Below are positions 28,356 through 46,400 of a DNA stretch of 64,000 nucleotides, one piece after another. The number at the start of each line of letters is the position of its first letter. The stretch's first letter is position 1. Location of the stretch: assembly GCF_009914755.1 (NCBI RefSeq), contig NC_060934.1, one strand, 5' to 3'. Position numbers and translations under genes: made by a program. This stretch comes from the human T2T-CHM13v2.0 reference genome, Homo sapiens. The notes beneath the pieces were generated by a model. That model made no database searches. It saw only the letters and a program-made list of their open reading frames with translations, and was not told the origin of the DNA.

Positions 28356-29142
28356 ACAAGAATCCAGAACTCTATTTTGACATCTGGTGGACATCGCTCC
28401 AATCATGATTCCATGTCTCTCTGCATATACAGAAAGAAAGTTAAATTTGTATAGCTAGAGAACTGCTTAGATTAGGTTGAAAGATAAAATTTTATGAGAA
28501 TATCATATATGTTTTAAAAGCAAGTTTTAGCTATATTTACTAATAAAAAGAAAGGAAACTGATGAAGCTAAAGAAGTTCAGGAAAATATTTCTCATAAAG
28601 ATTAGTTTCCAAGAAACTACATTACTACATATCCTCACCCTGTGAGGGCACAAAACGCCCTGACAAACCTCATTTCAGTTTTTCCTTCTTGGAGATTAGT
28701 CTGTTATTCTTAAATCAGGGGCTTATCAGGGTCTCTGTGTTTCTTCCCAGGGAAAGAGTGGGCATCTAGAATGTGGGAGGTAATACATAATACCTCCAAA
28801 TCTCCAGGGCGTATTTATTTCTTCAGACATCATGCTTACTGCCCCCCACTTTTTTTTTTTTTTAGAAAGAAAGAACAAAAAGAAGAGAAGGAGAGTAAAT
28901 TCTTGTTTCCAAGTTAGACAAGAGAGTTATGATTAAATGCCACCTTGGGTCCACAAGTCTTCCATAAGAAAAACAATGAAAGGATTTCTGGATGATTCTA
29001 TTATGACATCACAACTTGCAGCAGAGGCAGATGTAATGAGGCAATACTTGACATTGTTTTCAGGGCATTTGGTAGGTTCAATGGGAAACAAAACTCTTAA
29101 AACCCCTATCTGCTGGCTGGTGCTTAAAGTTTCTATCTCAAT

Positions 29143-29388
29143 TGTCTTAGTCCATTTAGTGTTGCTATAAAGGAATAGCTGGGGCTGGGTAATTTGTAAA
29201 GAAAAGAGGTTTATTTGGCTCATGGTTCTGCAGGCTGTACAGGAATCATGGTGCCAGCATTTGCATCCGATGATGGCACAGGCTGTTTTCATGCATGGTG
29301 GAGGGTGAAGTGGAGCTGGCGTGCAGGGATCACATGGCAAGGCAAGAGGGGAAGTGAGTGAGTGAGTGAGCAAGACAAAGAGGGGAAG
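29143..29388 (-). mobile_element. MSTB-like LTR, left piece (host of the nested complex)
   Basis: tgtcttagtccatttagtgttgctataaaggaatagctgggg...; continues at about 38523-38710; outer TSD tcaat/taaat. Confidence 0.8.
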
Positions 29389-31327
29389 TGTATTAGTCCA
29401 TTTTCACGCTGCTGATAAAGACATACCTGAGACTAGGCAATTTACAAAAGAAAGAGGTTTAACTGGACTTACAGTTCCACGTGGCTGGGGAAGGTCTCAG
29501 AATCATGGTGGAGGGCGAAAGGCACTTCTTACATGGCAGTGGCAAGAGAGAATGAGGAGGGAGCAAAAGCAGAAACCCGTGATAAACCCATCAGATCTTG
29601 TGAGACTTTTTCACTACCATGAGAATAGCACAGGAAAGACCAGCCCCTATGATTCAATTACCTCCCACTGGGTCCCTCCCACAAAACATGGGAATTCTGG
29701 GAGATATAATTCAAGTTGAGATTTGGGTGGGGGCACAGGCAAATCATATCATTCCACTCCTGGCCCCTCCCAAATCTCATGTTCTCACATTTCATAATCA
29801 ATCATGCCTTCCCAACAGTCCCCCAAAGCCTTAACTCATTTCAGCATTAACTCAAAAGTCCACAGTCCAATGTCTCATCTGAGACAAGAAAACTCCCTTC
29901 TGCTTACAACCCTGTAAAATCAAAAGCAAGTTAGTTACTTCCTAGATACAATGTGGGTACAGGCATTGGGCAAAAACAGCCATTCCAAATGGGAGGAATT
30001 GGCCAAAACAAAGGGGCTACAGGCCCCATGCAAGTCCAAAATCCATCAGGGCAGTTAAATCTTAAAGTTCCAAAATTATTTCCTTTGACTCCACGTCTCG
30101 CATCCAGGTCACACTGATGCAAGAAGTGGGTTCCCATGGTCTTGGGCAGCTCCGCCCCTTGGCTTTGCAGGATACAGCCTCCCTCCCGGCTGTTTTTATG
30201 GGCTGGTGTTGAGTGTCTGTGGCTTTTCCAGGCACACAGTGCAAGCTATCAGTGGATCTATCATCCTGGGGTCTGGAGGATGGTGGCCCTCTTCTCACAG
30301 CTCCAATAGGTGGTTACCCCATTAGGGATTCTGTTTGGGGGCTCTGACCCCACATTTCCCTTCTGCACTGCTGTGGCAGAGGTTCTCTATGAAGGCCTTG
30401 CGCTTGCAACAAACTTTTGCCTGGGCATCCAGGCATTTCCATACATCTTCTGAAATCTAGGCGGAGGTGCCCAAACCTCAATTCTTGACTTCTGTGTACC
30501 CACAGGCTCAACACCATGTGGAAGGTGCTAAGGCTTAGGGCTTGCACCCTCTGAAGCCATGGCTGGAGCTTTACCTTGGTCCCTTTTAGTCATGGCTAGG
30601 GGCAGCTGGGACACAGGACACCAAGTCCCTTGGCTGTACACAGCATGGGGACCCTGGGCCTAGCCCAGGAAGCCATTTTTATCTTGTACACCTCCAGGCC
30701 TGTGATGAGAAGGGCTGCTGTGAAGACCTCTGACATGCCCTGGAGAGGCATGTCTTTTCCCCATTGTCTTGTGAGTTAACATTCTGCTCCTCGTTACTTA
30801 TGCAAATTTCTGCAGCTGGCTTAAATTTCTCCCCAGAAAATGGGATTTTCTTTTTCTATTGCATTGTCAGGCTGCAAATTTTCCAAACTTCTATGCTGTG
30901 CTTTCCTTATAAAATGGGATGCCTTTAACAGCACCTGAATCACCTCTTGAATGTTTGCTGCTTAGAAATTTCTTCCACCTGATACCCTAAATCATCTCTC
31001 TCTGGTTCAAAGTTCCACAGGTCTCTAGGGCAGGGGAAAAATGCTGCCAGTCCCTTTGTTAAACATAACAAGAGTCACCTTTGCTCCACTTCCCAACAAG
31101 TTCCTAATTTCCATTTGAGATCACCTCAGCCTGGACTTTATTGTCCATATTGCTATCAGCATTTTGGGCAAAGTCTCTAGGAAGTTCCAAACTTTCCCAC
31201 ATTTTCTTATCTTCTTCTGAGCCCTCCAAATTGTTCCAACCTCTGCCTGTTACCCAATTCCAAAGTCAATTCCACATTTTTGGGTATCTTTTCAGCAACA
31301 CAACAGCCCACTCCTGGTACCAAAATC
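29389..31327 (-). mobile_element. THE1 element: 3' LTR (29389-29751) plus complete internal region, lacking its own 5' LTR
   Basis: tgtattagtccattttcacgctgctgataaagacatacc...aaatcatatca, then PPT complement ttccactcctggcccctcc, then THE1-int up to the PBS region. Confidence 0.9.
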
Positions 31328-34300
31328 TGTATTAGTCAGGGTTCTCTAGAGGGACAGAACTAATAGGATAAATATTATATATGTATATATATATGTATAT
31401 ATGTAAATGGGAGTTTATTAAATATTAACTAACATGATCACGAGGTCCCCACAATAGGCTGTCTGCAAGCTGAGGACCAAGGAGAGCCAGTCCAAGTCCC
31501 AAAACTGAAGAACTTGGAGTCTGATGTTTGAGGGCAGGAAGCATCCAGCATGGGAGAAAAATGTAGGCTGGAAGGCTAAGCCAGTCTTGCCTTTTCATGT
31601 TTTTCTGCCTGCTTTATATTTGCTGGAAGCTCATTAGATGGTGTCCACCTGATTAAGGGTGGGTCTGCCTTCCCCAGCCCACTGACTCAAATCTCCTTTG
31701 GCAACACCCACACAGACTCACCTAGGGTTAATACTTTTTACAGTCCTTATTTCTGCAGCTGGTCATGTGGTCGTAGCTGGTATTGATGACTACCTTCTTC
31801 TATCACCCACTGTGTATTCCCTTTGCCTTCTGCAAGCACCTCATCAGATCAAGGTTTTTTTCCTGGTGGAGTGACTTAAACCTTCATTCCTGAAGGGTCT
31901 GGACCATTTGTAGTCCTCCCTGGATTGGGCTGTTGTAGTTTCTCATTGACCTTAATCACAGGGCATGGTAATACTAAGTGACATCCTAATGGATCTCCTG
32001 TATTCCATGCATGCTCCTCCTTACCTCTGTTATGGAGTAGTAGACTGATTTCATCTTGATAGTCTGGGTCAATCAACCTAGCCAACACTGTAACTCCCTT
32101 CTTAGCCTGTTTACTTAAAGGTAGGAGGAGCCCGAAGTGTCCAGGTGACAATCTTAACTTTCAGTTTAATGGAATTGTTGTTGTGTCTCCTGGTGGCAGT
32201 GTTACTCCCTCTGGAACTAAGATCTCTAGGCTAGCAGAACGTAATGTTGCAGGAACAGGAAGCAAAAATTTTGCTACTGGATCATTAGGGGTGATGGTGA
32301 GTGGTGCCACTTCCACTTCCACCCCTTGATTCCTGGACCCGTGAATCCTGGCTATGGGAGAAACAGTACCATATATCAGATGCTGATCCAGTGCATACAC
32401 AGCCTTCTAGAGTACTTTGCCCCAGCCCTGCAAAGTATTGTCATCTAATTGACATGGTAATTGTAGGGTCCAGCCCCACAGGGTTGGTGCATTTTCTCCT
32501 TCTGTGTGGAGACGAGAGAGCATAGAAATAAAAACACAAGACAAAGAGATAAAAGAAAAGACAGCTGGGCCCGGGGGACCACTACCACCAAGATGCGGAG
32601 ACTGGTAGTGGCCCCGAATGCCAGGCTGCACTGATATTTATTGGATACAAGACAAAGGGGCAGGATAAGGAGTGTGGGCCATCTCCAATGATAGGGAAGG
32701 CCACATGGATCACATGTCCCCTGGACAGGGGGCCCTTTCCTGCCTGGCAGCCGAGGCAGAGAGAGAGAGGAGAAAGAGAAACAGCTTACACCATTATTTC
32801 TGCTTATCAGAGACTTTTAGTACTTTCACTAATTTGCTACTGCTAACTAAACGGCAGAACCAGGTGTACAAGATGGAACATGAATGCAGACTAGGAGTGT
32901 GACCACTGAAGCACAGCATCACAGGGAGACGGTTAGGCCTCCGAATAACTGTGGGTGGGCCTGACTAATGTCAGGCCTTCCACAAGAGGTGGAGGAGTAG
33001 AGTCTTCTCTAAACTCCCCTGGGGAAAGGGAGACTCTCTTTCCCGGTCTGCTAAGTAGCGGGTGTTTTTCCTTGACACTAACGCTACTGCTAGACCACGG
33101 TCTGCTTGGCAATGGGCATCTTCCCAGATGCTGGCGTTACCGCTAGACCAAGGAGCCCTCTGGTGGCCCTGTCTGGGCATAACAGAAGGCTCACACTCTT
33201 GTCTTCTGGTCACTTCTCACTATGTCCCTTCAGCTCCTATCTCTGTATGGCCTGGTTTTTCCTAGTTTATGATTATAGAGTGAGGATTATTATAATATTG
33301 GAATAAAGAGTAATTGCTACTAATGATTAATGATATTCATATATAATCATATCTAAGATCTATCTCTGGTATAACTATTCTTATTTTATATTTTATTATA
33401 CTGGAACAGCTCGTGTCCTCGGTCTCTTGCCTTGGCACCTGGGTGGCTTGCCACCCACAGCAATTGTGACTTTGAAAGGCCATTCCACCGTTCTATCAAT
33501 CCAGCTGCTTCAGGATGATGGGCAACGTGGTAAGACCAGTGAATTCCACGAACATGAGCCCACTGCTGCACTTCTATGGCCGTAAAGTGAGTACCTTGGT
33601 CAGAGGCAATACTGTGTGGAACACCATGATGGTGGATAAGGCATTCCATGAGTCCACAGATGGTAGTCTTGGTAGAAGTATCGTGTGCAGGATAGGCAAA
33701 CCGATATCCAGAATAAGTATCTATTCCAGTGAGGACAAATCTCTGCCCTTTCCATGATGGAAGAGGTTCAATATAATCAACCTGCCACCAGGTAGCTGGC
33801 TGACCACCCTGAGAAATGGTGCCATATCGAGGAATCAGTGTTGGTCTCTGCTGCTGGCAAATTGGGCACTCAGCAGTGGCCATAGCCAGATCAGCCTTGG
33901 TGAGTGGAAGCTCATATTGCTGAGCCCATTCATAACCTCCATCCCTGCCACCATGGCCACTTTGTTCACGGGTCCATTGGGCAATGACAGAGGTGCTTGG
34001 GAAAGAGGCTGAATGGTGTCCACAGAAGTGGTCATCCTATCCACTTGATTATTAAAATCCTCCTCTGCTGAGGTCACCCATTGGTGAGCACTCACATGGG
34101 ATACAAATATCTTCACAGTTTTTGACCACTCAGAGAGGTCCATCCACATACCTCTTCCCCACATTTCTTTGTCACAATTTCCGATCATTCTTCTTTCAAG
34201 TCCCTGACCATCCAACCAAACCATTAACTACAGCCCATGAATCAGTATATAATCACACATCTGGCCATTTCTCCTTCCATGCAAAGTGCACAACCAGGTT

Positions 34301-37300
34301 CACTGCTCTTAGTTCTGCCCACTGGGAAGATTTTCCTTCCCTACTGTCCTTCAGGGATGTCCTAGAAAGGGGCTGTAGTGCTGCAGCTCTCCACTTTTGG
34401 GTGGTGCCTGCATATCGTGCGGAACCATCCACGAACCAGGCCCAACTAATTATAGGGAACTTCCCATGAGGCCGTTGGGGCAGGCTCGGGGAGAGAAGGA
34501 AGGGTGGCAGGAGTGGAGACCATGGGCATTTGAACCACTTCCTCATGTAACTTACTTGTGCCTTCAGGACCTGCTGGAACCTGATCACATATATACCACT
34601 TCCATCCTGTGGTCATTTCCCTAGTGCCACTTCCATTTGATGACGGAATGCTGCTGTGCACAACCCACTTAATGGCTAGATGGGTCAGAAAGCACCCAGT
34701 TTATGATAGGCAGTTCAGGTCGCGTGGTGACTTGGTGACCTACAGTCAAACGTTCAGTTTCCACCAAAGCCCAGTAACAGGCTAAGAGCTGTCTCTCAAA
34801 AGGAGAGTAGTTATCTGCAGAAGATGGCAGGGCCTCGCTCCAAAATCCTAGAGGCCTCCACTGTGATTCACCTATGGGAGCCTGCCAAAGGCTCCAAACA
34901 GCATGCCTATCTGCCACTGACACCTCAAGCACCATTGGATATGCTGGGCCATATGGCCCAAGTGGCAGAGCAGCTTGCACAGCAGCCTGGACCTGCTGCA
35001 GAGCCTTCTCTTGTTCTGGACTCCACTCAAAACTGACAGCTTTTCAGGTCACTCAATAAATGGGCTGGAGTAACACACCCAAATGAGGAATGTGTTGCCT
35101 CCAAAATCCAAATAGGCCCACTAGGCATTGTGCCTCTTTCTTGGTTGTAGGAGGGGCCAAATGCAGCAACTTATCCTTCACCTTAGGAGGAATATCTCTA
35201 CAGGACCCATACCACTGGACCCTTAGAAATTTTACTGAGGTAGAAGGTCCCTGAATTTTAGGCAGATACACTTCCCATCCTCTGGCATGCAAATGTTTCA
35301 CCAATAAGTCCAGTGTTTGCTACTTCTTGCTCACTGGATCCAATCCGCATAATGTCATCAATGTAATGGACCAGTGTGATATCTTTTGGAGGCAAAAAGC
35401 GATCAAGTTCTCTCTGAATAAGATTATGACACAAAGCCAGATAATTCATATACCCCTGAGGTAGGACAGTAAAGGTATATTGCTGGCCTTGACAGCTGAA
35501 GGCAAATTGTTTCTGGTGGGCCTTATGGACAGGAATGGAGAAAAAGGCATTTGCCAAGTCAATGGTTGCACACAAAGTACCAGGAGATGTGTTAATTTGC
35601 TCAAATAATGAAACCACATCTGGTACAGCAGCTGCAATTGGAATCATCACTTGGTTAAGCTTATGGTAATCCACTGTCATTCTCCAAGATCCATCTGTCT
35701 TCTGCACAGGCCAAATGGGAGAGTTGAATGGGAATGTGGTGGGAATCACCACCCCTGAGTCTTTCAAGTCCTTGATGGTGGCACTAATCTCTGCAATCCC
35801 TCCAGGGACACAATATTGTTTTTGATTTACTATTTTTCTAGGTAGAGGCAGCTCTAATGGCTTTCATTTGGCCTTTCTCACCACAGTAGCCTTCACCCTA
35901 CCAGTCAGGGAGCCAATGTGAAGGTTCTGCCAGCTGCTAAGTATGTCTATGCCAATTATGCATTCTCGCACTAGGGAAATGACCACAGGATGAGTCCAGA
36001 GACCCACTGGACCCACTGTAAGTCAGACCTGAGCTAAAACTTCATTAATTACCTGACTCCCATAAGCCCCTACTTTAACTGGAGGACCACAATGACGTTT
36101 TGGGTCCCCTGGAATCCATGTCAGCTCAGAGCCAGTGTCCAGTAGTCCCTGAAATGTCTGATCATTTCCCTTTCCCCAGCGCACAGTTATCCTGGTAAAA
36201 GGCCAGAGGTCTCCTTGGGGAAGGATGGGAGAAAGATTCACTGCATAAATTGCTGGTAATGTAGTAGGGTCCTTCCTAATGGGAACTTGGCTTCCCCTTC
36301 ATTCAAGTGGTTCTGGATCTGTAAACTGGCTCAAGTCTGGAAATTGATTAAGAGGCCATGATTCTACATTTTTATAATTCAAATTAGTCTTTTATCCATT
36401 CGACCTAGAAGTTTTCTGCTTGTATAAATTAAGTAGGAATGCAGTAGGCTTTCTATCAATTTCACTTCTAGGAACACCATGATTAATTAGCCAATGCCAG
36501 AGCTCTACACGAGTCAGACTATTCTGATTGCCGCTTTGCCTCTGCTGTCCATTATGATAGCTATGCCCACCTTGCTTTTGATAGCTGAGTGCCACCACTT
36601 GGCCCCTGCCACCTCGGGATCCAATTGTTACCATTATATTTAAGTTTTGTAGTTGAGTGACTGTGGCTCCCACCATTAGATCTGACATACAGAGAAAAGC
36701 AATTGCAAGGCTCTTCAAAGATTCAGGTGCTGCCCTCACAAATCTATTTTGCAAGGCGTTGGTCAAGGGTGTATCTTCTGGACCCTCCCAGCTGGGATGA
36801 GTAGGTCTAAAGTGACTAATCCACTCCACCATCCCAATCTCCCTAAGCCTTTGGATCCCTTCCTCTACATTAAACCAAGGGAGATCAGGCATTTCCACCT
36901 CGCTCACAATGAGCCATCTTTTAATCCATATTTCAGCAAACCAATCAAACAAACTATTAGAACCTTTTTTAATTCCCCAAGCTGCAACATTAAAAGCAGA
37001 GTTCCTACTTAGTGGGCCCAAATCAATAAATTCAGCCTGATCCAACTCTATATTCCTTCCCCATTATCCTATGCCCTTAATATCCATTCCCATGCCTGTT
37101 CTCCAGATTGCTGTTTATATAAATTAGAGAACTGAAGCAGATCTTTTTGAGTGTAGTGCACCTCCTCATGGGTCACACTCTCAACCTCACCTCTAGGTGC
37201 CCACCAGGACTTTAATCTAGTTACAGGTCTAGAAGCAAACAGAGGTGTTGGAGGGTAGCTCCTGAGGAGAATCAACATTATCTTGCCTGGCATCTGCCTC

Positions 37301-38522
37301 AGGGGAGGCCATCACTGTTGTCTCAGGCAGCACAGAGTTTATCTCTTCAGACAAAGGTGGAAAGGCTGATGGCAGCATGGGTCGGGGAGGGGATGTTGCC
37401 ACTACTGGGGATGGGGAAGCTGTTTCTTCTGGCCAAAAAAGTTCATCAGCATTTATGAACTCAAGTGTCTCCAGCTTCATCAGGGTCCTCCCAAACGTCC
37501 CCATTCCAAGTTTGAGGATCTCATTTTTTTCCAGTCAATGCACTCACTTTAACAGTAGACACCTGGTGAGGCTGTGCATGCATCTTTCATTGCAGGTCAG
37601 CCACTCAAATGATAAGAGCTTGCATCTGTTTTTCCACAATTTCAGCTCTTTACTGAAAGAGATGAGACTCTCATTCAGGGCAACCTTAGCAGATTTGAGG
37701 CTCAGTATCTGCCTCTGAAGCCAGGAGACAGAATCCCTGAGTTCATCATTTGCTTTCATCACTTTGTCCACTGAACTTAGGAGCAACTAACCAGTTTCAT
37801 TATGTTTCTTGGTTCCCCACATATGGTCAAAGGTATTATGTACAGAGTCACTAACTCCTTGCCTCTCACACGCGGTGGTGAATCAGGAGTGTCAAATGCA
37901 TTTATTTTGCATAACTTACTAAACAGTTTATGCCAAGGACTAGCAGTGTTTTACATACTATTAGAAGTATAGACCTTAGCATTTTTGCACCTAATCATAT
38001 TAAGCAGCCAAATCCAGAAACCCAAAAACCAATGAAAGAACTCCATCCTTAATATTCTGTTCCTCTAGAACCAATCCTGGTACCAAAATCTGTATTAATC
38101 AGGGTTCTCTAGAGTATATATACACACTATATATACATATAAAGGGAAGTTTATTAAGATTAATTTACAAGATCACAAAGTCCCACAATGGGCTATCTGC
38201 AAGCTAAGGAGCAAGGAGAGCCAGTCTGAGTCCCAAAACTGGAGAACTTGGAGTCTGATGTTCGAGGGCAGGAAGCACCCAGCATGGGAGAAAGATATAG
38301 ACTGGGAGGCTAGGCCAGTCTCACCTTTTCATGGTTTTCTGCCTGCTTTATATTCGCTGGAAGCTCATTAGATGGTACCCACCAGATTAAGGGTGGGTCT
38401 GCCTTCCCGGCCCACTGACTCAAATGTGAATCTCCTTTGGCAACACCCTCACAGACACACCCAGGATTAATGCTTTGAATCCTTCAATCCAATCAAATTG
38501 ACACTCAGTATTAACCATCATG
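31328..38522 (-). mobile_element. HERV-L provirus with MLT2A LTRs (31328-~31740 truncated; 38091-38522); degenerate gag, pro, pol (RT/RNase H/IN) and dUTPase
   Basis: Minus-strand ORFs: gag DQAEFIDLGPLS (36392-37045), protease LLDTGSEL (36023-36241), RT LPQGY..HYIDD (35258-35767), RNase H FVDGSA, integrase WQVDYI..SDQGTHF..GLIERWNG (33460-33883), dUTPase PGHFGLL..IDPDYQ (31876-32151); two homologous LTRs. Confidence 0.95.
32462..33459 (-). mobile_element. LTR13-like (ERVK class) solo LTR inserted in the HERV-L integrase
   Basis: TG...CA termini (tgtagggtccagcc...gcttgccacccaca), about 1 kb, TSD gtaat/gcaat; the integrase ORF is interrupted at this point. Confidence 0.85.
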
Positions 38523-38710
38523 GGTAGGCTCTTTTCAACAGCCATCTCTTGGGCGAACTAATAAAGTGAGAAGTCACTACACCAGGGCATTAATGTATTC
38601 ATGAGGGATCCACCTCCATGACCCAAACACCTCCCATTAAGCTCCACTTCCAACACAGGGGATCATATTTCAACATGAGGTCTGGAAGGTCTAATATCTA
38701 AACTATAGCA
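38523..38710 (-). mobile_element. MSTB-like LTR, right piece
   Basis: ggctcttttcaacagcc...catgagggatccacctccatgacccaaacacctccc...aactatagca. Confidence 0.78.
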
Positions 38711-39023
38711 TAAATATATCTCAAAAGAAATAAAATATGGCCATTCACTTAGGCAAGGAGCTCCCTGATTGTTGCTGTGTCCTAGAACATACACTGAAGT
38801 TTACAAAAACATTGAAGACTGGTTGTATCTAAACAGATTTTAATTTTAGACAACATGAACGCATTCCTTGCCATGAAAAATGAGGAGGTGTCTGCCTATG
38901 TTATCTTGTCAGAATTCATATCATTTACAGTCTATGCCAAAATTGTTTACTCTCATATTTTATAAATATAGTGGCTACCAGTATATATGATCAGAAACCT
39001 CTGATTCTAGCTTCTTTATTTCT

Positions 39024-41830
<2,807 letters not shown>

Positions 41831-42388
41831 GATTCACTTCTTGTTGTTCTGGGCTTTATGGTCAAGTAATTTGTTTTAGAAAACTTTACTGGGAGGTGAC
41901 ATCAGCAACATGGTGGCACAGGAGACTTCTACCTCTCCCTCCACCCATGGACACGTGGAATAAACACCTACACATGGATAAATTTTCTTTGAGAGAAAGT
42001 CAGAAAAAGTTGAGAGTCTCTTACACAGCAGACAACTGAGAAAATATTCACATCAAGCAGGTAGAAAAAGCTGAGGCACACGCAGGCACAAATATCACCC
42101 TGGGTACTGCACCATAAACCAGGAAAAACTCCCAACACATAACTTCTCCCTGAGGAGAGAAGGGTATGGACCACATGTATATGACCCTAGCTCCAAGGTT
42201 CCCATGGTTTGACTTTTAATTCACCTAGCTCTGGTAGTGGAAGGGACTAGGCATACACAAGTCTCCCTAGACCACAGAACAAAGTAGCAAAACCCTAAAA
42301 GGAGTTTGTTGGTATACTCCTCCAACTTCTGCTAACAGCAGAGCTTCTAACTAGCCTGAATTAGGGAGTTAACCGGGCTGACAAACTA

Positions 42389-42717
42389 CAATATTCCTCT
42401 GTTATTGATGGTTTTTCTTTCCAAAGTTTCAGTTAACTATGGCCAACTGCAGTCTGAAAATATTAAATGGAAAATTCCAGAAATAGACAGTTTGTAAGTT
42501 TTAAATAACTGTTATCACCATATGTTGTTATAATTGTTCTATTTTATAATTAGTTATTATGTTTCCTTCATTATTGTGCCTAATTTATAAATGAAACTTC
42601 ATCATAGGTATGTATAGGAAACAAAGCACAGTATATATAGGGTTTGGTGCCATACACAGCTGCAGGAATCTGCAGAATGTCTTGGACTGTATCACCCATG
42701 GATAAGGGGGACTAGTG
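42389..42717 (+). mobile_element. MER44/Tigger-type MITE
   Basis: TA-flanked; right TIR ggataagggggactagtg; internal gaaaatattaaatggaaaattccagaaat. Confidence 0.72.
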
Positions 42718-42960
42718 TATAGCCCTCCGGGAGGCTAAGCAGTAGCTCAGCACATCTTAAGCCTTCTCCTCTCCTGTGGTTCACCTGTGATATATCCAGA
42801 TCTACCCATTCTTTCTGGAAGAGGTTTGTCCACACACTGACTGCCCCAACTTTTACAGCTCCCACCCAAAAGACTGCATCCTAAACTGTCTAACTCTGGG
42901 AATGAAAGCGTCTTGGCATTTGCTAGTCTCCCTAGATTACGGTACAAAGAGGTAGTTTTA

Positions 42961-43419
<459 letters not shown>

Positions 43420-46400
43420 TCAGGCTCCTATCTAGCCTGCATCTGGGAGCCAACAGGGCCGACAAACGATAGACCTCCAGGATTCTGAATGAGAGTTCAG
43501 GCACTTCCCAAGCCTTTCCCTCCACCTCACCCCAGTGATAAAACCAGCTCTGTAGATTCCTTTTAGAAGTAGTTTGTGCACCAAGTGCCACAACTTCTAC
43601 AGCTCCCACCCGGAGGAGTGCCTCCTTAACCACCTAACTTTGGGAATTGGTGGGTCTCTGCATTTCTGAGTCTCCGTGGACGACAGAAAATAAAGAAGTG
43701 TACATTCAACAATCCAACTTCTAGTGACTATCAGAGGGTGCATTCTGCATGAAAATGCAGACACTTGTCACAGATCCTTCTTCTGACATAGTGCATAGAG
43801 AGTGGGAGATAAACTCTTGCTCTTAGCTTCACCCTGAGCAAAGAAGAAACTGGAACATATATTTAACACTCCAATCTTTCCAACTGCATCTAGTTTCTAT
43901 CTTACCTATCTCAAGGCACTGACAGGACTTGGCACATTGTAAAATTCTACGGTGGGCAGTCGGGGGGCACTAAAATCAGAGACAGTGGTTTGGACAAACC
44001 AGGATTTAAGAGGCACCTCAGAATCTCTGGACCAATTGGTGAGGGCCTTCTCCTACACTGACAGAACTGGGAGTCTCACAGTCTGACAGAACTGGGAGAG
44101 GCTGCTGTCTTATGTAATGCACGGACACTAATACAGAGAAACAAAGGAAATAGAAAAACAGGGAAATGGGTTCCAAATAAAAGATCAAGATAAATCTGCA
44201 GAAACCAACCCTAGTGAAGTGGAGATGTATGATCTACCCAATGAGGAATTCAAAATAATGGTCATAAAGATGTTCACTAAGGTCAGGAGAAAAATGCATA
44301 AACAAATAATTTCAAAAAAGAGATAGAAAGTATTTCAAAAGCGGCCAATAGAAATTATAAAACTGAAGAATATAATAACTGAACTGAAAAATTCAGTAGA
44401 GGTGTTCAACAGCAGACCAGATTAAGTGAAAGACAGAACCAGTGAGATTAAAGACATGTCATTGGAAATAATCCAATCCTAGAAGTAAAAAGAATGAAAA
44501 AGATAGCTTACAGGACTTCAACAAGCAGAACAATATATTCAGAATTGGTAGACCAGGAGGAAGAGAGGGAGAAAGGGACACAAAACATATTCAAAGAAAT
44601 GATGGGGAAAAACCTCCCAAGCTTAGGGAAATAAATTGAAATCAAGATTCAGGAAACTCAGATGACACCAAATAGGAAAAATCCAGAGACACACATTTGA
44701 GACATATTATAATCAAATTGTTAAAAATTTAGACAAAGAGAGAATTTTGAAAGCAACAAGGGACAGCAAATAGTTACACAAAAGGGATGCCCACCGTGTA
44801 AGATATCCATGGATTTTCTTTTTCCAGAAACTTTATAGGCCAGGAAGGAGCTGGATGATATATTCAAAATCCTAAAAGAAAAAAAAATTACTGCCCAAGA
44901 ATACCATACCTAGTAATACTATCTTTCAAAAATGAAGGCAAGAATAAGACTTTCTCAAACAAACAAAAGTCGAGGAAGGATATCACCATTAGATGTGCCT
45001 TACAAGAAATTCTAGGAATTCTTCAAGCTGGATTAAAAGGATACTAATTGATACGATAAAAATACAAAAATAAAAAACTTACTGGTAAAAGTAAGTACAT
45101 TGTCAGATTCAAACTAGTAATCAGGCAATGGTCTTCTGTAAAACAATTCTATCTCTAGTACAAAGGTTAAAAGATAAAGCAATTAAAAACAACCATAGCT
45201 ACAATAATCTGTTGAGAGATACAAATGATGAAATGATATAAATTGTGACATCAAAAGCATAAAATATGAGGTGGGGGAGTAGAAATGTAGAGTTTATTTA
45301 TGCAATCAAAATTAAGCTTTTATCAGCTTAAAAATAGCTGGTTATAAACATAAGATGTTTTCTGCAAGCCTCAAGTAACCACAAAGCAAAAATCTGTAGT
45401 AGATACACAAAAGATAAGAAGAAAATAGTCAAAGCATATCACTATAGACAAGCGTCAAACCATCTAAGATCAAGAACAAGACAAGGATGCCCACTCTCAC
45501 CACTTCCATTCAACGTAGTACTACTGTCAGTCTTAGCTAGAGTAATTAGGCAAGAGCAAGAAATAAAAGGCATCCAGATTGGAAAGGAGGAAATAATACG
45601 GTTCCTGTTTGCAGATGACATGATATTACGTACAGAAAACCATAAAGACTACATCAAAACTACTAGAACTGATAAATAATTGCATTGAGGGAATTGTTTT
45701 GTACCCGTTTATGGTGGGAGTTACATAAAATATAATATATACTACAATAAATATAATAAATATACTCTATATTATAAATATAATATATATAATACATATA
45801 ATAGCATTATATTTCATAGATCTGTACACCAAAGGAAAAGAAGTCTATTTTACATATGATGATTTTGAAAAATAAAAGAACGGAAAGTAGTATGGAGACT
45901 TCTGTTTAATGATAGTAGATGCGTGTCATTTTTATTATACTCTCCTCTTTTGAAACTAGCCAAGAATAACAATGGAACAAAAAAGAAAATTCCAAAATTA
46001 GTGCAGCAGGGAAATTGCCATGAGCACCATCACATCCTGAATCTTAGCTTTGAACAACTTGTCTGCAACAAATGAAGAGAATGCAGAGACCCCAGATATG
46101 CCTTTCGAGGCCTTTGGTAGGTCACATATTTCTCCAAATTCATGTCAGACCCAACAGTGCATGATTAAAACAGTGAGCAACCAATGCAAGGAGGTGTCTG
46201 AGAAGGTGCTCCTGCCACGGTCATGAGGACACATGTGTCAGCTCCTCAACTGTTCCAAAAAGCATGAGAGATGTGAAGCAGAGCCACACAAGACCTTCAG
46301 GAAGGCAGGACCACTCCACCCACCCCACCTGCAACAGGCCACTCATCCCAGCCCAGTCTGGATTAGGAGAGAGTTCTGGGAGTTTCCTTGCACAGAAATA

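What the first reader, a model, noticed from the sequence alone, without database searches (positions are those of the whole stretch)
29389..38522. Three-LTR HERV-L/THE1 chimera fused exactly at the primer-binding site
Seen in sequence: on the minus strand the order is MLT2A LTR, HERV-L internal, MLT2A LTR, PBS, THE1 internal, THE1 LTR. The THE1 has no 5' LTR of its own; the HERV-L 3' LTR occupies that position. At 31308-31327 that LTR is followed by ccactcctggtaccaaaatc, nearly the same LTR/PBS linker seen at the HERV-L 5' LTR (38071-38090, ccaatcctggtaccaaaatc), where host DNA would be expected. The sequence then passes straight into THE1-int. The whole 9.1-kb unit splits one MSTB LTR, with a possible shared TSD ggaag (29384-29388) / ggtag (38523-38527). 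Established knowledge: MaLRs such as THE1 lack pol and are thought to be mobilised by ERV-L. Inference: this fits an intermolecular plus-strand transfer at the shared PBS between co-packaged HERV-L and THE1 genomes, which would be fossil evidence of trans-mobilisation. Post-integration recombination or deletion at the PBS homology is the alternative.
Basis: partly seen in the sequence, partly recalled or inferred. Interest (0 to 1): 0.8.

Follow-up and report, generated by a model that had tools for sequence, protein, structure and literature searches.

The report
HERV-L/THE1 three-LTR chimera joined at PBS
An ancient HERV-L provirus and a helper-dependent THE1 retrotransposon sit fused at their shared primer-binding site as one insertion, and the same kind of fusion recurs at some 27 other places in the human genome, which is fossil evidence that the two were copied inside the same particle.

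Summary
On the minus strand the order is MLT2A-type LTR, HERV-L body (RT, RNase H, integrase, dUTPase), second MLT2A LTR, linker and PBS, THE1 internal, THE1 LTR. The 9.1-kb block interrupts one MST-type LTR, flanked by CTACC/CTTCC.

The middle junction carries the HERV-L linker (GATTT), not the THE1 linker (GTAAAT). It passes into THE1 sequence at the end of the 15-nt PBS core, so the crossover lies inside the PBS.

The junction is not unique. Three genome searches found 27 other human loci where an MLT2A LTR end runs through a PBS into THE1-int. Ten were shown complete: MLT2A LTR, THE1-int, THE1 LTR. Seven of these have 5-bp target-site duplications, three matching 5/5 and four 4/5, against a 3% chance rate. 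Crossover points and THE1 lineages differ among them, so the events were independent.

This supports recombination during reverse transcription between co-packaged HERV-L and THE1. None of the 27 has a HERV-L body upstream. Whether the window's body came in with the same integration or was added later at the LTR stays open without primate orthologues. No paper describing these chimeras was found.

The parts
38523..38710 (-). 5' part of the interrupted MST-type (MaLR) solo LTR; starts TGCTATAG
   Evidence: Aligns to the first ~190 nt of seven MST-like LTR copies at ~79% identity. It is not a THE1 5' LTR remnant: only 56 columns align to the THE1 LTR, at 70%.
38523..38527 (-). Left copy of the putative 5-bp target-site duplication (CTACC on the minus strand)
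   Evidence: matches the right copy at 4 of 5 positions.
38091..38522 (-). MLT2A-type 5' LTR of the HERV-L provirus
   Evidence: It matches the LTRs of other HERV-L proviruses and of the chimeras at 75-89%. It carries a ~24-nt deletion near its 3' end relative to the middle LTR.
38071..38090 (-). HERV-L linker GATTT plus PBS TGGTACCAGGATTGG
   Evidence: The same linker and PBS occur in 13 other HERV-L 5' ends; counting the window's own copy, 12 of 14 have GATTT and 2 of 14 GATAT.
31760..38070 (-). HERV-L internal region, defective. RT 35258-35863, RNase H-like 34669-35043, integrase core 33386-34036, dUTPase 31876-32160
   Evidence: Pfam hits PF00078, PF17919, PF00665 and PF00692 above their cut-offs. 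The longest stop-to-stop frame is 223 aa. The 3' end is 89-91% identical to other HERV-L copies.
31755..31765 (-). Junction of a ~380-bp deletion that removed the 3' untranslated tail, the polypurine tract and the first ~45 nt of the middle LTR
   Evidence: Alignment with nine intact HERV-L 3' ends, L037-L045.
31328..31759 (-). Middle MLT2A-type LTR: 3' LTR of the HERV-L and, by position, 5' LTR of the THE1
   Evidence: About 90% identical to the 5' LTR in the core (227 nt at 91%) and 86.6% over all ungapped columns. Best other genomic copies are 87-89% identical.
31307..31327 (-). Fusion point: HERV-L-type linker GATTT (31327-31323) plus PBS TGGTACCAGGAGTGGG (31322-31307), followed directly by THE1-int
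   Evidence: Ordinary THE1 copies have the linker GTAAAT and mostly a PBS with a 2-nt TA insertion.
29753..31306 (-). THE1 internal region, full length, no pol domains
   Evidence: 81.5-84.8% identical to ten ordinary full-length THE1 internals over 1422-1458 aligned nt. No Pfam domain in its two frames of 90 aa or more.
29389..29752 (-). THE1 3' LTR (364 nt), ends AATACA
   Evidence: Ordinary THE1 5' LTRs match only this span, which defines the LTR start.
29384..29388 (-). Right copy of the putative target-site duplication (CTTCC on the minus strand)
29143..29388 (-). 3' part of the interrupted MST-type LTR; ends GACTAAGACA

Best explanation
The block is a composite retroelement that entered one site of an older MST LTR. 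Its MLT2A-PBS-THE1 junction was made during reverse transcription, not by later chromosomal rearrangement.

Proposed mechanism:
- A THE1 RNA (no pol) and a HERV-L RNA were in the same HERV-L particle.
- The HERV-L plus-strand strong-stop DNA (U3-R-U5, linker GATTT, PBS copied from the primer tRNA) annealed to the PBS complement at the 3' end of the THE1 minus-strand DNA, instead of to its own.
- Extension gave DNA with an MLT2A LTR on the left and a THE1 LTR on the right.
- The ERV-L integrase inserted it with a 5-bp duplication.

This happened repeatedly in primate history: at least 27 further loci carry the same junction.

In the window the plus strand, or a second cDNA from the same particle, also carried the complete HERV-L body. 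The integrated product therefore had three LTRs.

What is shown:
- the anatomy;
- the crossover inside the PBS;
- a single interruption of the MST LTR;
- recurrence with target-site duplications;
- differing crossover points.

What is inferred:
- co-packaging;
- which strand transfer was involved;
- that the HERV-L body came in with the same integration. I put that last point at roughly 0.5-0.55, against about 0.8 for the junction having been made during reverse transcription.
For: 1. Crossover position. The window's middle junction has the HERV-L linker GATTT, seen in 12 of 14 HERV-L 5' ends (the other 2 have GATAT). The THE1 linker GTAAAT is seen in 6 of 8 ordinary THE1 junctions and in none of the HERV-L ends. 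The PBS lacks the TA insertion found in 6 of 8 ordinary THE1. THE1-specific sequence begins at PBS position 16.

2. One insertion. The flanks are the two parts of a single MST-type LTR, continuous to within about 5 bp, with CTACC/CTTCC next to the block.

3. No THE1 5' LTR remnant and no HERV-L-only duplication.

4. Recurrence. Junction queries found 15, 11 more and 1 more loci spanning the MLT2A end and the THE1-int start. Ten of the first 15 are complete MLT2A LTR, THE1-int, THE1 LTR elements.

5. Target-site duplications across unlike LTRs. Among the 10 complete loci plus the window:
- 3 match 5/5 (L029 CCACT, L032 AACCT, L033 GTACC);
- 5 match 4/5 (L021, L023, L025, L028, window);
- 2 do not match (L024, L035);
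- 1 cannot be scored (L030).
Chance in the same flanks is 3.0% for 4/5 or better and 0.24% for 5/5, from 16,000 control pairs.

6. Independent events.
- Every locus has different flanks.
- Linker type: 9 of 11 HERV-L type, 2 of 11 THE1 type. PBS type: 6 tRNA-like, 5 THE1-like.
- The chimeras are not monophyletic in a tree with 10 ordinary THE1. The window pairs with ordinary L049 and L023 with ordinary L051.
- The five basal chimeras all carry a longer MLT2A variant of 520-617 nt.

7. A 5' LTR's U3 is not transcribed, so an element with unlike LTRs cannot copy itself. Each copy needs a fresh HERV-L donor strand. This step rests on established retroviral replication, described in the passages of PMC3187697 read.

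8. Precedent. Three-LTR complexes with flanking target-site duplications in Triticeae, rice and maize were attributed to template switching between co-packaged RNAs (PMC1950507, whole text read).
Against: - The window's own duplication is only 4/5 and lies in CT-rich sequence. The MST alignment fits a 5-bp duplication or none about equally well.
- Simple plus-strand transfer predicts two LTRs. None of the 27 other loci has HERV-L internal sequence upstream, so the three-LTR form is a singleton that needs an extra step.
- The two MLT2A LTRs are no closer to each other (about 90% in the core, 86.6% overall) than the middle LTR is to its best unrelated copies (87-89%). They share only 1 private variant. 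Their being products of one reverse transcription is therefore allowed but not shown.
- The polypurine tract that should have primed the donor strand is deleted here. I read this as a later deletion.
- Two chimeras (L028, L029) carry the THE1-type linker, which plain plus-strand transfer does not predict.
- No reciprocal product (THE1 LTR, PBS, HERV-L internal) was seen among 39 HERV-L leaders. That sample was not enriched for such products.
- My LTR ends at L021, L025 and L033 were set by eye with 1-2 nt of slack.
- Searches score only 40 candidates each, so counts are lower bounds and the sample is biased towards sequences like the queries.
Confidence: 0.6

Rival explanations
1. Two steps. 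A two-LTR chimera (MLT2A LTR, PBS, THE1-int, THE1 LTR), made by plus-strand transfer like the other 27, integrated into the MST LTR. Later its MLT2A LTR acquired a HERV-L 5' LTR and body through LTR homology. The route would be gap repair or gene conversion from a HERV-L provirus elsewhere, or recombination with an unintegrated HERV-L cDNA or one-LTR circle. Either leaves the flanks and the duplication untouched.
For: - All 27 other junction loci are without a HERV-L body, so the two-LTR form is the usual product.
- The two MLT2A LTRs show no special sister relationship.
- Flank continuity and the 4/5 duplication fit this as well as a single step.
- That LTR-homology repair of this kind is known for yeast Ty elements is recalled, not checked here.
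Against: - It needs a second rare event at exactly one of about 28 chimeric LTRs.
- The particle that made the junction already held HERV-L cDNA, which makes a joint product natural.
- The HERV-L parts and the THE1 part show similar divergence from their nearest genomic relatives (87-91% and 83-88%). No age gap is visible, though this comparison is crude.
- No mosaic pattern is seen along the LTR pair.
Confidence: 0.27
2. The three-LTR form is the primary product of such events. The 27 two-LTR chimeras arose from it by ordinary recombination between the two MLT2A LTRs, the route that makes solo LTRs. The window would be the one survivor.
For: - LTR-LTR deletion is the common fate of proviruses (established knowledge).
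- It would turn the window's structure into exactly the structure seen at the other loci.
Against: - Many HERV-L proviruses keep their bodies: first-look candidate counts were 1303 for 3' ends and 1165 for leaders, against 3478 for the LTR. These are not copy numbers.
- On those figures, survival of only 1 in 28 looks low.
- The two-LTR form needs no step beyond one misdirected strand transfer.
Confidence: 0.08
3. Chromosomal rearrangement after integration. Independently inserted HERV-L and THE1 elements recombined, or suffered a deletion, at the roughly 30-nt homology formed by the LTR end and the PBS.
For: The LTR ends (CTAATACA) and the PBS are shared by both families. This gives a short homology tract.
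Against: - A normal HERV-L 3' LTR is not followed by a PBS, so at least two events would be needed.
- The outer flanks would then come from two different insertions. Here they are adjacent parts of one MST LTR, with a 4/5 pentamer match.
- Seven other complete loci have matching duplications across the unlike LTRs.
- There is no THE1 5' LTR remnant.
Confidence: 0.04

Closest known systems
Template-switching complexes of plant LTR retrotransposons (Sabot and Schulman 2007, PMC1950507; whole text read)
   Same: - Three LTRs, two internal regions and one flanking 5-bp target-site duplication.
- Explained by an aberrant strand transfer between two RNAs packaged in one particle, followed by a single integration.
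   Different: - The plant cases join two members of one family (Angela, Squiq, Opie), and their outermost LTRs are alike.
- Here the partners are an autonomous ERV-L and its presumed dependent MaLR, the outermost LTRs are unlike, and the join is mapped to the PBS rather than to R.
Retroviral recombination between co-packaged genomes and the obligatory plus-strand DNA transfer at the PBS (review PMC3187697; two passages read)
   Same: The join lies at the 15-18-nt PBS complementarity used for the second strand transfer. The donor side supplies a complete LTR and the linker.
   Different: - That the plus-strand transfer is normally within one molecule is recalled, not read here.
- The window records it between unlike genomes, fixed in the germ line about 28 times.
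Ordinary THE1 (MaLR) elements
   Same: - Full-length internal region and a 364-nt 3' LTR.
- The 3' half is 83-88% identical to ordinary copies and the whole internal region 81.5-84.8%.
- 5-bp duplications.
   Different: - No THE1 5' LTR. All 10 ordinary copies with a visible 5' end have one.
- The linker is of HERV-L type.
Tandem proviruses that share an LTR, such as the HERV-K (HML-2) tandem at 7p22 (recalled, not read here)
   Same: LTR, body, LTR, body, LTR with the original flanks kept.
   Different: Those arise by unequal exchange between the LTRs of the same provirus and repeat the same body. Here the second body and the last LTR belong to another family.
Mosaic HERV chains catalogued by Vargiu et al. 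2016 (PMC4724089; passages and supplement searches)
   Same: They report that many HERV chains contain MaLR pieces, and they leave MaLR analysis open.
   Different: - Their MaLR pieces were mostly at 3' ends, often antisense and often judged to be software artefacts.
- No PBS-level HERV-L/THE1 junction is described in the passages seen.
- No table row was found with coordinates starting 13530, 13531 or 13532. The stored file may be cut.

Membership tests
HERV-L (ERV-L, class III) provirus | pol with RT, RNase H and integrase, followed by a dUTPase downstream of integrase | tested here: met
   Pfam finds RVT_1, RT_RNaseH_2, rve and dUTPase in that order on the minus strand, all above their cut-offs. 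All frames are broken; the longest is 223 aa.
HERV-L (ERV-L, class III) provirus | Pair of MLT2A-type LTRs flanking the body | tested here: met
   The LTRs at 38522-38091 and 31759-31328 are about 90% identical in the core. They match the LTRs of other HERV-L proviruses. The name MLT2A itself was not checked against Dfam.
HERV-L (ERV-L, class III) provirus | PBS complementary to a leucine tRNA | not tested
   The PBS TGGTACCAGGAGTGG is shared with 13 other HERV-L copies. Its match to tRNA-Leu is recalled; no tRNA gene was compared.
HERV-L (ERV-L, class III) provirus | Own target-site duplication bracketing the two LTRs | tested here: not met
   CTACC lies before the 5' LTR, while GATTT (the linker) follows the middle LTR.
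THE1 (MaLR) element | About 1.55-kb internal region without pol, plus a THE1 3' LTR | tested here: met
   81.5-88% identity to ordinary THE1 copies over the internal region and the LTR. No Pfam domain in its frames. The A-D subfamily was not assigned.
THE1 (MaLR) element | THE1 5' LTR followed by the THE1-type linker and PBS | tested here: not met
   An MLT2A LTR holds that position, and the linker is GATTT rather than GTAAAT.
Template-switching complex (criteria of Sabot and Schulman) | Internal LTR shared by two complete cores | tested here: met
   The HERV-L core lacks about 330 nt at its 3' end.
Template-switching complex (criteria of Sabot and Schulman) | Flanking target-site duplication of the length typical for the family | tested here: inconclusive
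   CTACC/CTTCC match 4/5 in CT-rich MST sequence. The match is supported indirectly by 5/5 or 4/5 duplications at seven two-LTR chimeras.
Template-switching complex (criteria of Sabot and Schulman) | High similarity between the two outermost LTRs | tested here: not met
   The outermost LTRs belong to different families, MLT2A-type and THE1.
Recombinant complex formed after insertion (Devos-type, as described in PMC1950507) | No common flanking duplication; flanks come from two different insertion sites | tested here: not met
   The flanks are adjoining parts of one MST LTR with a 4/5 pentamer match.
MSTB solo LTR (host of the insertion) | Match to the MSTB model rather than to another MST or THE1 subfamily | not testable with these tools
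   No Dfam or Repbase library was on hand. The flanks match MST-like genomic LTRs at about 79%.

The most novel reading that the evidence does not exclude
The human genome holds a countable fossil series of about 30 or more independent HERV-L/MaLR heterodimer events, spread over at least two eras of MLT2A and THE1/MST evolution. In each, a HERV-L plus-strand strong-stop DNA was transferred onto a MaLR minus strand. This would be the first direct sequence evidence that MaLRs were reverse-transcribed and integrated inside HERV-L particles. The mix of linker and PBS types would record how the PBS heteroduplex was resolved. The window's three-LTR element would be the one case in which both cDNAs of a particle were joined and integrated together.
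Probability: 0.55. Interest if true: 0.72.

Novelty: new variant of a known kind. Interest (0 to 1): 0.62.

Why it matters
MaLRs (THE1, MST, MLT1) make up about 4% of the human genome and encode no polymerase (PMC10735291, introduction read). That ERV-L supplied their machinery is, as far as I recall, an argument from sequence likeness only.

Elements with a complete HERV-L LTR on one side and a THE1 LTR on the other, joined within the PBS and bracketed by one target-site duplication, are hard to make unless both templates were in the same reverse-transcription complex. They also require that the same integrase accepted both LTR ends.

That turns the helper-dependent relationship into something that can be counted and dated from genome sequence:
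- how often heterodimers formed;
- which HERV-L and MaLR subfamilies were active together;
- how often the plus-strand transfer went between molecules.

For annotation, these loci should be read as single insertions, not as nested or adjacent repeats.

Tried and rejected
1. Sister-LTR test. I asked whether the 5' and middle LTRs are each other's closest relatives or share private variants. It was uninformative. They are about 90% alike in the core, other copies reach 87-89%, and only 1 private variant is shared. The window's own 5' LTR did not appear among the 40 scored hits, probably because of the first-look filter.

2. Proving the duplication from the MST LTR alone. The site is CT-rich with indels among copies, so a 5-bp duplication and no duplication fit about equally.

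3. Reciprocal chimeras (THE1 LTR, PBS, HERV-L internal). All 39 HERV-L leader hits have an MLT2A end upstream. The one hit that started late (L069) is an ordinary HERV-L. A directed search would need a pattern built from two joined motifs, which I did not type.

4. A chimeric family copying itself. Rejected: the U3 of a 5' LTR is not transcribed, flanks and duplications differ at each locus, and the chimeras are not one clade.

5. Left flank as a leftover THE1 5' LTR. Rejected.

7. Literature. Five searches found no paper on MLT2A/THE1 or HERV-L/MaLR chimeras at the PBS. Only listings and abstracts were seen for most hits. The Vargiu 2016 supplement search for this locus found nothing.

8. Subfamily naming (MLT2A1 or MLT2A2, THE1A-D, MSTB) and orthologue comparison were not possible with the tools on hand.

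9. Dating from about 10% LTR divergence was left as a rough figure of a few tens of millions of years, because it depends on a recalled substitution rate.
Full report
**1. The observation**

- An MLT2A-type LTR runs from 38522 to 38091 and ends TAATACA.
- It is followed by GATTT and TGGTACCAGGATTGG (38090-38071), then by about 6.3 kb of HERV-L internal sequence.
- A second MLT2A-type LTR runs from 31759 to 31328, again followed by GATTT and TGGTACCAGGAGTGGG (31327-31307).
- The sequence then passes without a break into a THE1 internal region (31306-29753) and a THE1 LTR (29752-29389).

The repeat finder reports the two LTRs as direct repeats: 227 nt at 91% and 48 nt at 90%. It also reports a 44-nt repeat at 95% that spans each LTR end plus 20 nt beyond it.

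Pfam finds reverse transcriptase, an RNase H-like domain, integrase core and dUTPase, in that order, in broken frames of the internal region. A dUTPase after integrase is, from recall, the ERV-L arrangement.

Ordinary THE1 5' LTRs match only the last 364 nt of what I first took for the LTR. The THE1 LTR proper therefore starts at 29752.

**2. The surroundings**

The sequences on either side of the block are the front (38710-38523) and back (29388-29143) of one MST-type MaLR LTR. They align end to end with seven intact MST-like LTRs from elsewhere in the genome at about 79% identity.

The pentamers touching the block are CTACC and CTTCC. The insertion point lies in a CT-rich, indel-prone part of the MST LTR. 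The alignment shows that no more than about 5 bp is missing or doubled, but it cannot tell a 5-bp duplication from none.

The left flank is not a leftover THE1 5' LTR: only 56 columns align to the THE1 LTR, at 70%. There is also no duplication bracketing the HERV-L part alone, where the pentamers are CTACC and GATTT.

**3. An extra detail at the middle LTR**

I compared the region with nine intact HERV-L 3' ends. The window lacks about 330 nt of 3' untranslated sequence, including the polypurine tract, and the first ~45 nt of the middle LTR. That is one deletion of about 380 bp. Order and orientation are otherwise normal, so I read it as a later deletion.

**4. Where the crossover lies**

The two families differ just downstream of the shared LTR end.

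| Element type | Linker after ACA | PBS | Source |
|---|---|---|---|
| HERV-L 5' ends (14: the window's, L069 and 12 more) | GATTT in 12, GATAT in 2 | TGGTACCAGGAGTGG, then TTCTAGAGG | |
| Ordinary THE1 of the window's lineage (8 junctions) | GTAAAT in 6 | mostly with a 2-nt insertion, TGGTACCAGTAGAGTGGGG (6 of 8) | |

The window's middle junction has GATTT and the uninserted PBS, and it turns into THE1 sequence from PBS position 16. The donor of the LTR and linker was therefore HERV-L, the recipient was THE1, and the switch lies inside the PBS.

**5. The junction is recurrent**

A genome search with 291 nt centred on the junction returned, besides ordinary THE1 starts, 15 other loci that match on both sides. 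Similar queries taken from two of those loci added 11 and then 1 more. The last search gave 1 new locus among 13 other loci matching on both sides, so the set is close to what this method can find. Each search scores only 40 candidates, so 27 is a lower bound.

I fetched 8 kb around the first 15.

- Ten are complete elements with a full MLT2A LTR, a full THE1 internal region and a THE1 LTR.
- One is truncated.
- Four carry only the first ~360 nt of THE1-int.

None of the 15 has HERV-L internal sequence anywhere in the 8 kb.

For the 12 later loci I fetched only the stretch upstream of the LTR. Again none shows HERV-L internal sequence. In 7 of the 12 the LTR start is seen next to unrelated DNA. 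In the other 5 the LTR start was not in the piece fetched.

A sample of 11 ordinary THE1 elements shows a THE1 5' LTR in all 10 whose 5' end is visible. The chimeras are therefore a small minority.

**6. They were integrated as units**

I set the LTR ends by the TGTGATGG start and the AATACA end, then compared the 5 nt outside each end across the 10 complete loci and the window.

| Match | Loci |
|---|---|
| 5/5 | L029 (CCACT), L032 (AACCT), L033 (GTACC) |
| 4/5 | L021, L023, L025, L028 and the window |
| no match at my best-guess ends | L024, L035 |
| cannot be scored (broken 3' LTR) | L030 |

In 16,000 control comparisons of displaced pentamers from the same flanks, 3.0% match at 4/5 or better and 0.24% at 5/5. 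Some ends were set by eye with 1-2 nt of freedom. Even tripling the chance rate leaves the excess very large.

A 5-bp duplication bracketing an MLT2A LTR on one side and a THE1 LTR on the other means the integrase was handed a DNA that already had unlike ends.

**7. They are independent events**

- Flanks and duplications differ at every locus.
- Crossover points differ. Of 11 junctions, 9 have the HERV-L-type linker and 2 (L028, L029) the THE1-type. Six have the uninserted PBS and 5 the THE1-type PBS, in mixed combinations.
- In a tree of the THE1 halves with ten ordinary THE1 elements, the chimeras do not form one clade. The window pairs with ordinary L049 and L023 with ordinary L051.
- The ordinary sample was chosen for likeness to the window, so the deeper chimeras have no ordinary neighbours in that tree.
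- The five deepest chimeras (L024, L025, L028, L030, L035) are also the five whose MLT2A LTR is a longer variant of 520-617 nt, with an extra segment of at least ~87 nt. This suggests older HERV-L and older MaLR subfamilies recombining in their own time.
- An element with unlike LTRs cannot pass on its 5' U3 through RNA, so each needs a new HERV-L donor. This rests on established knowledge of LTR replication; the outline is in PMC3187697 (passages read).

**8. Mechanism**

The simplest account has four steps.

1. A HERV-L RNA and a THE1 RNA are present in one particle.
2. HERV-L plus-strand strong-stop DNA is made, carrying the LTR, the linker and a copy of the primer tRNA's 3' end.
3. That DNA is transferred to the PBS complement at the end of the THE1 minus strand.
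4. Both strands are completed, and the product is integrated.

This predicts a HERV-L linker with either PBS type, depending on how the PBS heteroduplex was resolved. Nine of 11 junctions fit. The two with a THE1 linker need a switch a few bases further into the shared LTR end.

These steps are inferred. What is shown is the position of the switch, the unit integration and the recurrence.

**9. The three-LTR form**

Plain transfer gives two LTRs. The window needs more, and three routes are possible.

- A plus strand that had already run through the whole HERV-L and again ended in a PBS copy could have made the transfer.
- The HERV-L cDNA and the chimeric cDNA of one particle could have recombined through their MLT2A LTRs before integration.
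- The HERV-L 5' LTR and body could have been added after integration, by LTR-homology repair from another HERV-L.

All three keep the flanks. The LTR pair does not decide between them. The two LTRs are about 90% alike in the core and 86.6% over all ungapped columns. The middle LTR reaches 87-89% with unrelated copies, and the pair shares only 1 private variant.

The reverse idea, that three LTRs is the primary form and the 27 others lost the HERV-L body by LTR-LTR deletion, cannot be excluded. It looks unlikely given how many HERV-L bodies survive in the genome (candidate counts, which are not copy numbers).

I put the junction's origin in reverse transcription at about 0.8 and a one-step three-LTR integration at about 0.5-0.55.

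**10. Comparison with what is known**

Sabot and Schulman described three-LTR complexes with flanking 5-bp duplications in wheat relatives, rice and maize. They attributed them to template switching between co-packaged RNAs (PMC1950507, whole text). Their criteria include similar outermost LTRs, which the window does not meet, because here the partners belong to different families.

Vargiu et al. report that HERV chains often contain MaLR pieces but set MaLR analysis aside (PMC4724089, passages). Their master table gave no row for this locus in my search.

Zuo 2023 states that MaLRs have only a gag-like frame and cannot replicate alone (PMC10735291, introduction).

Five full-text searches found nothing on MLT2A/THE1 or HERV-L/MaLR junction chimeras. 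Subscription journals are not covered, so this is not proof of absence.

**11. Verdict**

- The three-LTR arrangement is a singleton whose last step is undated.
- I rate it as a new variant of a known kind of event, of clear interest to people who work on endogenous retroviruses and dependent retrotransposons.

Noticed in passing
L026 (C22:6.27 Mb), L031 (C10:43.13 Mb), L034 (C16:34.65 Mb), L027 (C23:69.38 Mb): At four loci an MLT2A LTR is followed by only the first ~360 nt of THE1-int, ending at the same point (THE1-int position 359). They may be copies of one truncated chimera spread by segmental duplication rather than separate events.
   Followed up: no
Ordinary THE1 loci L048-L056, 5' junctions: Six of eight ordinary THE1 copies carry a PBS with a 2-nt TA insertion (TGGTACCAGTAGAGTGGGG) relative to the HERV-L PBS. 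If the same tRNA primed them, the mismatch was inherited through the RNA rather than reset from the primer.
   Followed up: partly
window 31365-31415 and 38115-38150: An AT/AC-rich microsatellite sits in the 3' part of both MLT2A LTRs and differs in length. The 5' LTR also lacks about 24 nt that the middle LTR and other copies keep.
   Followed up: partly
window 33104-33183 and 35833: According to the hub's annotation, a RefSeq 'silencer' lies inside the HERV-L region between integrase and dUTPase. In addition, alternative exons of the minus-strand lncRNA LOC105378575 run from 35833 to 44871. That is the same strand as the provirus, and the exon end falls in the RT region.
   Followed up: no
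L022 (C23:149.71 Mb): A THE1-like LTR piece ends about 650 nt upstream of the MLT2A LTR of this truncated chimera. It could be a neighbouring element or a more complex nest.
   Followed up: no
G000 C2:4506653 and C2:4514462: The chimeric junction found last lies about 8 kb from a HERV-L leader on the opposite strand. This is probably coincidence. No HERV-L sequence lies directly upstream of the chimera.
   Followed up: partly
window 38711-38725 and 29120-29142: The host MST LTR itself appears to be a solo LTR with its own possible duplication: ATTTA before TGCTATAG and ATTGA after GACTAAGACA, a 4/5 match.
   Followed up: no
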